A DNA stretch of 41,513 nt from an archaeon (GTDB lineage Archaea; Iainarchaeota; Iainarchaeia; Iainarchaeales; 0-14-0-20-34-12), in NCBI GenBank assembly GCA_038046645.1, contig JBBSVU010000013.1, forward strand, positions 1 through 41,513, in the 5' to 3' direction. A program made the position numbers. The number at the start of each line of letters is the position of its first letter. The first letter of the stretch is position 1. This document shows, in pieces, positions 15,001 through 18,000 of this stretch.

Positions 15001-18000
15001 ATTGCTTCATTCAACAGACCTTCCTGAATCCAAAATAACAACAATACTGACCGAATTAGGCTTAGCTTATGGTAAAACAATTGCCTTGGCAAAAAAATCC
15101 AACCAATATATCCCAGTAGATAAAAACATTGCTTCCTTTGAAAAAAAATATTCAGATAACACTTTTGAATATTATAGCATTATTAGCACTCGTGTGAATA
15201 ATACTTTCACTAAGGCAGTTAATTCCATTTTAGTAATGGATATTTTGCCAAAAACAGCTGCTGCTAACGCATCAGATGTAAAACAAGTTAGTGTAGAAAA
15301 AACCGTGCTTGTTTCTGATCCGGTTATTGAATTTATTATTGATAATCTAGCACAGCAATCCGAAACAGCCTTTACCTACCTATTGGATGCAGCATTGGAT
15401 GATGCAAAAACAACTTCCTGGGACCCTTCATTTGCTTTTGCTGCAAATGGTTTGCCTGATGAGAGTTGTACAAAAACCTGTGGTGCTGATGAAACATTAG
15501 ATCCTGTTGCCTGTGTTTGCAATGTTAACCCTTACTGTGGTGACGGTTCTTGCAACGGAACAGAAACAAGTGCAACATGCTCATCAGATTGCCCTAAAAC
15601 ATGGGAACCCCCTGCAGCGCCGCAAGATGGTGGCACAGAAAATGATGGAACTGGCGGAATTGGGGGCATGGGAGGAACAGGAGGAAGTGGAGGAACAGGC
15701 GGCAATGGAGGATCTACCCATTCAATCTGTGTTAATTATGCCTGTGTTTCAGTCCCTGGCCCAGGAAAGAGTGAATGCTCCCTTAATAATGGCTGTAATT
15801 TTTCAGTGAACTATTTTGAGAACCTTTGGATAAATGCAACTCAAACAGTAAAGGTAACCTCAAAGACTGATGGTTCTATTGAGGGTATTAAAGTTATTGT
15901 GCAGGGAATGATTGATTCTTATCTGGACAAAGAAGGAACTGTTAATTTTACTGTTACTAAAGCAGGAAAATTCAATATTGACCTTTACAATAATAACGGT
16001 GTTAAGATAGTGTCCTTGCCCTTTACGGTTGAAGATATGGTGATTGAAACACCGGCAATTGCCCTGCCTAAGCAGCCATTAAACATTAAAGTAAAGGATT
16101 CTAAAGGCAATTTAATTCAAGAAGTAATTATTGAATTGCTTGATGAACAAGGCAAGGTACTTAAGAAAGCAAAAACAAATGGAATTTTGAAATTTACTCC
16201 CCTGAAAGAAGGCTTCTTGAAAGTGAAAGTGTATAAGAGCAATGGAAGCAATGAAGCTAAATTTGAGGTAGGGGGTTTGTTGAACAACACCCTAGCCACA
16301 ATAACCTCTTCCTTATCCTATTTATTTGGTTCAGAATCAAAGGATTACCCTTGGACAACGATTGTTATCTTTATTCTTGTTTGCATAGCTTTCTTAGTTT
16401 CATTTGATATGTTTAGCATTTATTTCCCTCTAAAAGGCGTTTCTACCACTGAATTTCGCAAGCATCTTGGCATTAGAACCGGTATCGGGTTAGTATTCTT
16501 TATCACTCCAATAATTTGTTCCAGAATACTTTCTATATCGCTTGGTTTTATTAGTGCTGTTCTTGAAATAGTTGTAATAATTCTTTTGTTCTTCCTTTTG
16601 AGGGAGCAAGCCAAGCAGAAAAAGCAGTTCCAATTCATTAAATAGCTCTAGCCATTTTTCTAAAATGCGATTTTGCATTCTTTTGCATTGAATCATCTCT
16701 GCTTTTATCTTTTTCTTAGTTAGTTTATATTGTATGAAAGGTCTATTGCTTATAAGCGGTGGTTTTGATTCTGCAGTAGCAGGTTATCTTGCAATGCAGG
16801 CTTCTAAGCCAATAGAAGCAATTCACTTTTCCTTAGAACCATTTACTAATTCAAAACCATTTGAAAAATCAAAAGACTGTTTAAAGGTTCTTGGATTGGA
16901 TAAGATTTATTATTCCAAAGCAGGAGACTATTTTTTGCAGTTTGCAAAGACCTGCAATGAAAAATATTACTTTATCCTAAGCAAGAGGTTTATGCTAAAG
17001 GTTGCAGAAAAGCTTGCCAGAAAAAATAATTTTGATTTCTTGATAACTGGTGAAAATTTGGGGCAGGTATCAAGCCAAACTTTGCAAAGTTTAGCGGTAA
17101 TCCAAAAAGCAATTTCTTTGCCTTTAATCAGGCCATTGCTTTGTTATGACAAGGAAGAAATAATTTCTGTTGCAAAGCAGATAGGGACCTATGAATTGTC
17201 CAAAGGGCCTGAATGCTGCGATGTTTTGGTATCAGGCAAGCCAGTAACTCAACCAGATATTTCTGTTGTTCTAGAAGAGGAAAAAAAAGTCGATATGGAT
17301 TCAATTGTTGAAAAGGCTTTTTCAGAAATTCAATTAATTCAGATTAATGGTTAGCCACATAATTATGTGAATAACATAATTACGTGTTTTATGTTATTTT
17401 ATTTTTTTCATGTCTACTTTTGCTGTCTTGATGCCGGCAGCATTTAGCAGTTTATTTGCATTCTCATTCAAAGGATATTCTGAATTATAAACTACTTTTT
17501 TTATGCCAGCATTTATGATCATTTTTGAGCACATTAAGCAAGGGGAAAAAGTAGTATATAGTTCTCCGTCCTTTACTGATATGCCATGATATGCTGCCTG
17601 TACAATTGAATTTTCCTCAGCATGTGAGCAAAAACATTCTTCTAATCCCTTTCCACTTTCGCCAAATGCATTGCATCTAGGGCATCCCCCATCACTGCAG
17701 TTCTTTACCCCTCTTGGGGTCCCATTATAGCCGGTAGAAACAATCCTTTTGTCCTTTACTATGATTGCTGCCACTTTCCTTTTTATGCAATTGCTTCTTG
17801 TAGCCACTACCTTTGCTACCATTAAAAAATATTCATCCCAGCTAGGCCTTTCAAAATTCTGAGGTATTTTCTTCATAAGTGCATCAACCTCCTTATGGAG
17901 CTTTTCTGTTGTTGAATCATTTATAATTTTATACTTGCAAAGCTTTTTGCAAGCCAATATCTGCTGTGCATTTTTATCCTTGCTTTTTAACTCTTTTTTT

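What a model noticed while it worked through the whole genome (the two positions that open the first line are those of the whole stretch)
16734..17354. tRNA thiouridine synthase ThiI is divided into a catalytic-only and a THUMP pseudo-enzyme gene
ThiI is encoded as two unlinked genes: a 206-aa PP-loop enzyme without the tRNA-binding domains (g00776, here) and a 296-aa ferredoxin-like+THUMP protein whose PP-loop domain has lost the SGGxDS, GE and cysteine motifs (g00889, C14:72126-73016). As the ThiI homodimer binds the tRNA 3' end with one subunit and modifies with the other, these two likely form a heterodimer.
Evidence so far: The same 25 of 31 genomes hold both the ThiI and the THUMP family and the same 6 hold neither. 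In 23 of the 25 the catalytic domain lies in a 205-277 aa frame and THUMP in a separate frame of about 290-340 aa (two are shorter, 180 and 209 aa); 2 are fused (390, 418 aa); in G033 the two genes are adjacent. The alignment shows the dead motifs in eight homologues of g00889 and the intact motifs in g00776.
(Added by a program. Inside this text positions count along the whole contig: contig position 1 is position 1 of the stretch shown here. "Call 12" and the like, gene names such as g00115 and contig names such as C1 are that model's own, and its searches are not shown. The text may have been shortened before it was handed on; [...] marks where a part breaks off. The agent that wrote the report below was given it as the finding of a first reader that could run no searches.)

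Follow-up and report, generated by a model that had tools for sequence, protein, structure and literature searches.

The report
Two-subunit archaeal tRNA thiouridine synthase
Many archaea encode the tRNA sulfur-adding enzyme ThiI as two genes, a bare catalytic domain and a tRNA-gripping copy with a dead active site, which most likely pair up as one enzyme and would explain a long-unassigned crystal structure.

Summary
Confirmed and extended. Window 16734-17354 encodes only the ThiI PP-loop domain, with its motifs intact. The genome's single THUMP protein (C14:72126-73016) is a ferredoxin-like+THUMP protein with a dead PP-loop domain and the fold of PH1313 (1VBK, TM 0.86). Of 151 genomes of this phylum, 75 hold both genes, 24 a fused ThiI instead, 50 neither, and 2 one gene alone. 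The pair recurs in four other archaeal groups. In two Thermococci loci the genes overlap by 4 nt. The genome encoding a protein identical to PH1313 has only a catalytic-only ThiI beside it. A predicted heterodimer scores 0.90 (best control 0.01; mark reached by 116 of 157 solved and 2 of 215 mismatched pairs) and copies the trans contacts of the T. maritima homodimer, so it may pass by likeness. The dead subunit keeps the CCA-binding residues and the trans-acting lysine. It does not track NcsA. Best reading: heterodimeric tRNA s4U8 synthase (0.8); binding and activity are untested. Not found in ten literature searches; two key papers were unavailable. This scan noted the same split before on other DNA (e1-1359277, e1-5606547).

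The parts
16734..17354 (+). Catalytic-only ThiI/TtuI gene (206 aa, PP-loop pyrophosphatase domain alone). Its proposed partner lies outside the window at G000:C14:72126-73016(-).
   Evidence: partner
16755..16772 (+). PP-loop S8-G-G-F-D-S13 (ATP binding)
   Evidence: S8, G10, D12, S13 invariant in 38 of 38 rows of A1
16971..16982 (+). F80-x-x-S83: the place of the CxxC motif of Fe-S-type TtuI, absent in this protein
   Evidence: alignment; CxxC present in 16 of 40 catalytic-only relatives of this phylum
17049..17081 (+). G106-E-N-L-G-Q-V-S-S-Q-T116: dimer-interface loop that binds ATP and meets the partner's ferredoxin-like loop
   Evidence: invariant columns; T. maritima roles in PMC4041423 section 20; residues 108-111, 113, 116 in the predicted interface
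17130..17153 (+). R133-P-L-L-C-Y-D-K140: dimer contact; by alignment D139 is the likely equivalent of T. maritima Asp319, which binds the other subunit's linker
   Evidence: the equivalence is inferred from alignment
17214..17219 (+). C161-C162; C162 aligns with the catalytic Cys344 of T. maritima ThiI
   Evidence: Cys in 37 of 38 rows of A1; alignment; C344S inactive

Best explanation
The 206-aa protein (catalytic subunit) and the 296-aa protein (scaffold subunit) form a heterodimer through the catalytic domain of one and the shrunken, dead PP-loop domain of the other, using the ThiI homodimer interface. The scaffold's THUMP domain holds the tRNA 3'-ACCA end and its ferredoxin-like domain the acceptor stem, so U8 is placed in the partner's active site and the scaffold's Lys16 loop completes that site. 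The catalytic subunit adenylates U8 with ATP and inserts sulfur, giving s4U8. This genome's enzyme has no CxxC and no rhodanese domain, so sulfur most likely arrives as a persulfide at Cys162 from one of two cysteine desulfurases; relatives with CxxC+C probably use a [4Fe-4S] cluster. Shown here: gene anatomy, motif states, co-occurrence, gene coupling, fold. Predicted: the complex. Inferred from T. maritima ThiI: tRNA binding in trans and U8 as target. Inferred only: sulfur donor, 1:1 stoichiometry, origin by duplication and division of labour.
For: [quoted passage not shown] (2) Own phylum, 151 genomes: 75 both, 24 fused only, 50 neither, 1 catalytic alone (79% complete), 1 scaffold alone (88%); none with fused and split. 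(3) Class of G154 (Thermoplasmata record), 121 genomes: 100 with two or more partial matches, 15 with one full-length gene, 6 with one partial match. Phylum of G151 (Woesearchaeota record), 101 genomes: 25 pairs, 20 fused, 1+1 single, 2 weak, 52 none. Phylum of G153, 21 genomes: 13 pairs, 5 fused, 1 scaffold alone, 1 weak, 1 none. (4) Thermococci, 61 genomes: 48 of 49 genomes with a catalytic-only gene also have a dead scaffold (15) or a full-length gene lacking the third Cys 66-2243 nt upstream on the same strand (33). In L239 and G440 the scaffold stop overlaps the catalytic start (GTGA). (5) G423 encodes a protein identical to 1VBK (307 of 307); its only other ThiI match is a catalytic-only protein passing PRK08349. 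(6) Motif census: PP-loop and G[ED]xxxQVxSQT in 80 of 80 catalytic-only and 0 of 72 scaffold proteins; late Cys in 79 of 80 and 0 of 72. Scaffolds of this phylum keep K16 (40 of 40, = Tm Lys17) and G130, V142, L144 (40 of 40 each; = Tm CCA contacts G126, V138, V140 by the alignment). (7) Predicted complex: score 0.90 in three runs, best of three controls 0.01; the mark was reached by 116 of 157 solved and 2 of 215 mismatched pairs (counts hold only roughly with my alignments); runs agree in at least 97% of contacts; partner pLDDT at least 89. The interface includes scaffold E12, K16, linker 171-173, KRG 200-203 and 275-282, and catalytic 108-118 and 132-141. (8) In the dead domain, interface positions are more conserved than the rest (0.59 of 25 against 0.41 of 96, p 3.5e-4). 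(9) G000 has 43 tRNA genes with T at position 8 (20) or at 9 after one extra 5' base (23), and NifS+NifU and SufS-like genes.
Against: No binding or activity was measured. The complex resembles solved ThiI homodimers (4KR6, 2C5S), so the pass may come from memory; close cousins also pass, and homodimers of either subunit were not scored. The interface-conservation test is partly circular (same alignments fed the model), and for the catalytic chain it was not significant (0.60 against 0.56, p 0.23). In Thermococci, 19 of 61 genomes carry a second, apparently intact full-length ThiI, 18 of them alongside the pair, so there the pair may have another target. G437 keeps the scaffold-like gene with a broken catalytic gene and no other ThiI match; G413 has a decayed catalytic remnant. 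M. maripaludis C348A keeps 62% of s4U in vivo (PMC9825150), so the Thermococcus full-length type lacking that Cys need not be dead. In most genomes the genes are unlinked. 1VBK was solved as a dimer without a partner (PMC9957541 legend). Related genomes are not independent.
Confidence: 0.8

Rival explanations
1. The two proteins work together, but on another target or in another assembly: another tRNA position or RNA, a 2:2 complex, or transient docking of catalytic homodimers on scaffold homodimers.
For: The pair coexists with an intact full-length ThiI in 18 Thermococci genomes. Three scaffolds carry a C-terminal extension, Nudix in the two scanned. 1VBK is a dimer in its crystal.
Against: In the other four groups no genome was seen with both fused and split forms, which points to one shared job. 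The domain order and linker that set the CCA-to-U8 distance are kept.
Confidence: 0.09
2. The catalytic-only protein acts alone on a small substrate (sulfur insertion as in thiamine, LarE or QueC chemistry), and the THUMP protein is an unrelated tRNA chaperone or relic. The Hori review suggests single separate roles for the Pyrococcus homologues.
For: The genes are mostly unlinked. PMC9957541 proposes separate roles for the multiple Pyrococcus homologues. Earlier scan notes report catalytic-only genes beside E1-like and small Cys proteins (unchecked).
Against: Two independent functions would not be lost together in f5 (0 of 20) and f10 (0 of 17) or be replaced together by fused ThiI. No ThiS was found in G000 (89% complete). 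The dead domain is conserved mainly at the dimer face.
Confidence: 0.07
3. The scaffold is a tRNA-binding helper for another enzyme such as NcsA/TtuA, an acetyltransferase or a methyltransferase, as Tan1/THUMPD1 is for NAT10.
For: THUMP adaptors exist. NcsA lies next to the scaffold gene in G057 and G132. An earlier scan note proposed this (e1-761385).
Against: NcsA-like genes occur in 17 of 20 f5 and 16 of 17 f10 genomes, which lack the scaffold, and were not found in G072, G105 and G120, which have the pair. NcsA also flanks a fused ThiI (G004) and a catalytic-only gene (G106). NAT10/TmcA was not found in G000; PF01170 gave only two weak hits.
Confidence: 0.04

Closest known systems
ThiI/TtuI without rhodanese domain and without CxxC (T. 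maritima 4KR6/4KR7, B. anthracis 2C5S)
   Same: Same three domains in total, same PP-loop, dimer-interface loop and single catalytic Cys position; predicted interface uses the same elements; tRNA binding and catalysis in trans.
   Different: Known enzymes are single-gene homodimers with two active sites; PMC9825150 states that all TtuI enzymes contain NFLD, THUMP and PP-loop domains. Here they are on two genes, with one active site and one tRNA site per dimer.
PH1313 (PDB 1VBK), 'ThiI-like protein' of unconfirmed activity
   Same: Best sequence hit (E 1.5e-23) and best fold hit (TM 0.86, rmsd 3.0) of the scaffold; same dead, shortened PP-loop domain.
   Different: Described as truncated TtuI or of unknown function, with no partner proposed in the passages read. 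26% identity; on the tree it groups with Thermococcus full-length genes, not with this scaffold.
NCBIfam PRK08349 (NF006222), 198-aa 'hypothetical protein'
   Same: Catalytic-only ThiI domain; matches the window protein over 1-178 (E 7.5e-41).
   Different: The window protein is below the cut-off (140 against 251) and lacks CxxC; Thermococci members pass (349, 325 bits) and carry CxxC+C.
Archaeal CxxC+C [4Fe-4S] TtuI (M. maripaludis, P. furiosus; PMC9825150)
   Same: 47 of 80 catalytic-only proteins examined carry CxxC.
   Different: The window protein has F80/S83 in place of CxxC; the studied enzymes are full-length.
Enzyme/pseudo-enzyme tRNA modifiers Ncs6/Ncs2 (Ctu1/Ctu2), Tad2/Tad3, Trm61/Trm6
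   Same: Active plus inactive paralogue derived from a homo-oligomer (recalled; only the existence of Ncs6/Ncs2 and ADAT2/ADAT3 complexes was seen).
   Different: Those are eukaryotic and keep similar domain sets; here the active partner has also lost the RNA-binding domains, so neither gene is complete.

Membership tests
ThiI/TtuI (TIGR00342) | PP-loop PPase domain with SGGxDS and GE/GDxxGQVxSQT | tested here: met
   Window protein
ThiI/TtuI (TIGR00342) | Catalytic Cys equivalent to Cys344 | tested here: met
   C162
ThiI/TtuI (TIGR00342) | NFLD + THUMP + PPase in one chain; score above 264.5 | tested here: not met
   167.3 bits (catalytic) and 115.4 bits (scaffold) on separate genes
ThiI/TtuI (TIGR00342) | Dimer that binds tRNA with one subunit and modifies with the other | tested here: inconclusive
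   Heterodimer predicted (0.90, best control 0.01); a model, possibly from likeness; no RNA in the model
ThiI/TtuI (TIGR00342) | Forms s4U8 in tRNA | not testable with these tools
   Needs assay or tRNA mass spectrometry
CxxC+C [4Fe-4S] TtuI subclass | CxxC motif in the catalytic domain | tested here: not met
   F80/S83 in the window protein; present in 16 of 40 relatives of this phylum
E. coli-type ThiI | C-terminal rhodanese domain | tested here: not met
   ORF ends 19 aa after the Pfam match; no rhodanese hit
PRK08349 (NF006222) | Score above 251 bits | tested here: not met
   140.2 bits; same architecture
PH1313-type ThiI-like proteins (scaffold, C14) | NFLD + THUMP + shortened PP-loop domain without SGGxDS | tested here: met
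Tan1/THUMPD1-type adaptor of NAT10/TmcA | Partner acetyltransferase in the genome | tested here: not met
   PF05127 not found in G000 (89% complete)

The most novel reading that the evidence does not exclude
Across much of the archaea s4U8 is made by a modular two-subunit enzyme in which a vertically inherited tRNA-ruler scaffold accepts exchangeable catalytic subunits of two chemistries (Fe-S CxxC+C or single-Cys). In families f4 and f23 both catalytic types occur, while the f4 scaffolds form one clade. In Thermococcus the annotated full-length 'ThiI' that lacks the third Cys is itself a scaffold in the making and needs the PRK08349 gene downstream; the decay series SGGIDS, SGPNS, SGKNS, LHDELS at that gene shows the pseudo-enzyme arising.
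Probability: 0.4. Interest if true: 0.85.

Novelty: new variant of a known kind. Interest (0 to 1): 0.72.

Why it matters
It gives a testable function to the orphan structure PH1313 (released 2005) and to the 'hypothetical' family PRK08349. [quoted passage not shown] It predicts s4U8 in hundreds of archaeal genomes whose two genes each fail the ThiI cut-off. A one-site heterodimer separates tRNA measuring from chemistry, which would make trans catalysis and the open mechanism of ThiI enzymes without rhodanese or CxxC easier to study. It would be a prokaryotic case of an enzyme/pseudo-enzyme tRNA modifier with intermediate stages still visible in culturable Thermococcales.

Tried and rejected
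Assembly artefact or frameshift: rejected (unrelated upstream ORF; no indel in four runs; 76 short catalytic frames in the phylum). NcsA as the scaffold's client: rejected for this phylum. Fusions of the catalytic subunit to a sulfur carrier: five long frames (369-746 aa) and three long scaffold frames (426-612 aa) were fetched; each has a normal-length gene at its 3' end and the upstream part looks like non-coding open frame by eye. A gene or tRNA between the adjacent genes of g13: no ORF of 70 aa on the gene strand and no tRNA. A single origin of all dead scaffolds alone was rejected (p-AU 0.026); with the Thermococcus full-length type added it was not (p-AU 0.35; group named after seeing the tree), so the number of origins is open. 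One locus search with the scaffold alignment found no usable pattern and one DNA pattern found nothing. Expression: no RNA holder listed. Which T. kodakarensis gene is Tk0366 could not be settled. Rows dropped before counting: G076 (weak partial PF02568 hit in a 343-aa frame) and G143 (THUMP-only hit in a 403-aa frame), neither examined; frames open at a locus end were left out of the motif census and trees.

Full report
Observation. The window is G000:C13:1-41513, from a 1.17-Mb genome that is 89% complete. It looks like a small-genome DPANN-type archaeon; that is my inference, no call names it. ORF 16734-17354(+) is 206 aa and consists of the ThiI PP-loop domain alone (PF02568 E 2.3e-48; aligned to 2C5S 190-391 and 4KR6 176-381). 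It has SGGFDS, GENLGQVSSQT, RPLLCYDK and ECCD. Its neighbours are an 810-aa protein upstream and a convergent kinase-like/dCMP deaminase gene. Contigs of four public runs show no indel over 15800-18400. C14:72126-73016(-) is 296 aa with ThiI_fer and THUMP. Its C-terminal 117 residues are a shortened PP-loop domain (hhalign 95.4%) without the ATP or Cys motifs. Its AlphaFold model (pLDDT 95.4) matches PH1313 best (TM 0.86). It is the genome's only THUMP match.

Distribution in the own phylum. I searched 151 genomes with PF02568, PF22025 and a profile of 40 scaffold proteins. After dropping two weak partial rows (G076, G143), 75 hold both genes, 24 a fused ThiI only, 50 neither, G145 the catalytic gene alone (79% complete) and G065 the scaffold alone (88%). 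A few counted genes are contig-edge fragments. Families f5 (0 of 20) and f10 (0 of 17) lack both. In four genomes of genus g13 the catalytic gene lies about 290-360 nt upstream of the scaffold on the same strand. Kin are not independent, so I give no test statistic.

Other archaea. One search per group with TIGR00342 separates full-length, catalytic-only and N-terminal matches. Class of G154 (Thermoplasmata record), 121 genomes: 15 full-length only, 100 with two or more partial matches, 6 with one. 75 match rows were not listed there, and I checked 12 pairs by sequence. G226 has the genes adjacent and divergent. Phylum of G151 (Woesearchaeota record), 101 genomes, counted from the table: 25 pairs (one scaffold in two frames), 20 fused, one catalytic alone, one scaffold alone, 2 weak, 52 none. 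Phylum of G153 (record titled Micrarchaeota), 21 genomes: 13 pairs, 5 fused, 1 scaffold alone, 1 weak, 1 none. In these groups no genome showed both fused and split forms. Of the 80 loci, the bacterial ones are full-length, apart from two cut by a contig end and one in two frames.

Thermococci. In 61 genomes, 49 have a catalytic-only gene. Of these, 15 have a dead scaffold and 33 a full-length gene (type A) 66-2243 nt upstream on the same strand; G416 has neither. Type A keeps SGGIDS, CxxC and GDSLGQVASQT but has I, V or M at the third Cys in 36 of 36 loci read (33 distinct), while the catalytic-only genes keep that Cys. Five type A rows were assigned by score and position, not read. In L239 and G440 a 311-314-aa scaffold overlaps the catalytic gene by GTGA. 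The PP-loop decays in steps across genomes: SGGIDS, SGPNS, SGKNS, LHDELS. G423 encodes a protein identical to 1VBK, and its only other ThiI match passes PRK08349. Against a simple picture: 19 genomes have a second full-length ThiI with all three Cys (four read by sequence), 18 of them beside the pair; 11 have another full-length type and no catalytic-only gene; G437 and G413 have broken catalytic genes. A preprint states that deleting T. kodakarensis thiI (Tk0366) removes s4U8 (10.64898/2026.08.09.743744, passages); I could not tell which gene that is.

Complementary conservation. In a set picked from the better-scoring matches, all 80 catalytic-only proteins keep the PP-loop and QVxSQT motifs and 79 the late Cys; none of 72 scaffolds does. 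Scaffolds keep the KRG motif (71 of 72; 16 of 80 in catalytic-only proteins) and lose RPLxxxDK (1 of 72; 78 of 80). In T. maritima ThiI the RNA is bound by NFLD and THUMP of one subunit and U8 lies in the other's active site; linker Gly168 binds Asp319 of the other subunit, and the NFLD loop with Lys17 folds onto loop 289-297 of the other subunit (PMC4041423; passages and sections 18-20). The scaffold keeps the Lys17 equivalent (K16, 40 of 40), the linker glycines and the CCA-groove residues G130, V142, L144 (40 of 40); the catalytic subunit keeps the 289-297 loop. Each half thus retains what it would give in trans.

Complex model. With both alignments the pair scored 0.90 in three runs against a best control of 0.01; the mark was reached by 116 of 157 solved complexes and 2 of 215 mismatched pairs, counts that hold only roughly for my alignments. 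Runs agree in at least 97% of contacts and partner pLDDT is at least 89. The interface joins scaffold residues 10-20, 171-181, 197-203 and 272-282 to catalytic residues 19-25, 108-125 and 130-141, the same elements as in the homodimer. Like complexes are solved, so this shows likeness, not binding. Interface positions of the dead domain are more conserved than its other positions (0.59 against 0.41, p 3.5e-4); the catalytic chain shows no such excess (p 0.23), and the test shares its alignments with the model.

Chemistry in this genome. The window protein has no CxxC and no rhodanese domain, the class whose mechanism PMC9825150 calls open (passages). G000 has a NifS-like gene beside NifU on C11 and a SufS-like gene on C14; SufBD, ThiS and NAT10/TmcA were not found. 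All 43 tRNA genes are consistent with U8 (read with a one-base offset for 23). A persulfide relay to Cys162 is my inference. Among 40 catalytic-only relatives of this phylum 16 have CxxC, and both types occur within f4 and f23, whereas four f4 scaffolds form one clade (98). This suggests exchange of catalytic subunits, or differential loss.

Trees. On a quick tree of 100 of 139 catalytic domains (LG+G4, SH-aLRT, bacterial outgroup), the window protein lies in a 20-row catalytic-only clade (99) with Woesearchaeota-group proteins; strong branches force at least 3 changes between fused and split. On 93 N-terminal parts, 23 scaffolds of this phylum form a clade (99) and PH1313-type scaffolds group with type A (99). 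One clade of dead scaffolds alone is rejected (p-AU 0.026), but not with type A added (0.35; named after seeing the tree). One or several origins remain possible.

Rivals. NcsA as client: NcsA-like genes are in 17 of 20 f5 and 16 of 17 f10 genomes without a scaffold and were not found in three genomes with the pair. Separate roles, as suggested for Pyrococcus in PMC9957541 (passages), do not explain joint loss and joint replacement. A shared job on another target stays possible where an intact ThiI coexists.

Literature. Ten searches gave no paper describing a two-gene ThiI; most hits were seen as listings only. Passages read: PMC9957541 (PH1313 activity unconfirmed), PMC9825150 (PH1313 a truncated TtuI; all TtuI have three domains; one supplement searched, whose alignment figure is not text), PMC4041423, PMC5372739, PMC8584467, PMC2948915, PMC12255305 and the Trm14 preprint. 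Liu 2012 (PMC3481272) is not held, PMC6313347 timed out, and the study that deleted Tk0366 was not seen; these may mention the homologues. Analogies to Ncs6/Ncs2, Tad2/Tad3 and Trm61/Trm6 are recalled. Earlier notes of this scan reached the same idea on other genomes; they are not independent evidence.

Verdict. Observation confirmed; heterodimeric s4U8 synthase at 0.8; a new variant of a known enzyme; interest 0.72.

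Noticed in passing
L346:297-1592(+), L347:378-1679(-), L352:321-1652(+) (G389, G391, G398): Dead scaffolds of 432-444 aa with a C-terminal extension, Nudix by Pfam in the two scanned. All three genomes also have a catalytic-only ThiI, so the Nudix domain may ride on the heterodimer, for example removing pyrophosphate or a by-product.
   Followed up: partly
L252, L266-L293 (Thermococci): Full-length ThiI type A keeps CxxC but has I, V or M at the third Cys and sits upstream of a catalytic-only gene, often with one small gene between.
   Followed up: partly
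L239:34-1559(-), L314:288-1810(+): Scaffold and catalytic gene overlap by GTGA; this catalytic gene is sister to the type A PPase domain, suggesting a separate tandem duplication or gene conversion at this locus.
   Followed up: partly
L001:8130-9017(-), residue C203: Near-invariant Cys (39 of 40) in the scaffold's KRGC motif lies in the predicted interface; role unknown.
   Followed up: no
L001:6126-9017(-); L065, L066, L068: The scaffold gene is followed by a metallophosphoesterase (Mre11-like by my reading) directly in g13 and after a HAD gene in G000; a topoisomerase VI-like gene pair lies further along C14 (by sequence, not scanned).
   Followed up: no
G106:C1:198251-200047, G057:C81:11648-14625, G132:C34:1-1542, G004:C10:7909-10021: NcsA/TtuA-like genes lie next to ThiI-family genes of all three kinds (catalytic-only, scaffold, fused): small tRNA-thiolation clusters.
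   Followed up: partly
window 17394-18404(-): 336-aa fusion of a nucleoside-monophosphate-kinase-like domain (AAA_17) and a dCMP deaminase domain.
   Followed up: no
window 14213-16645(+) and 18706-21402(+): Large secreted or surface proteins: 810 aa with Cys-rich CGNGxC repeats and a C-terminal membrane anchor; 898 aa with many DLN/DFN repeats and no Pfam match.
   Followed up: no
window 9030-12313(-): RNA polymerase subunit B appears as two genes (486 and 605 aa), by sequence reading.
   Followed up: no
L214:899-1669(+) (G226): A PP-loop protein with SGGFDS (LarE-like by my reading; no Pfam hit at 1e-3) lies tail to tail with the catalytic-only ThiI gene.
   Followed up: partly
G000:C6:80008-80093: ARAGORN calls a tRNA-SeC(tca); many G000 tRNA calls contain introns.
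   Followed up: no
L255:431-1474(-) (G381): A THUMP + FtsJ methyltransferase gene directly follows an intact full-length ThiI.
   Followed up: no
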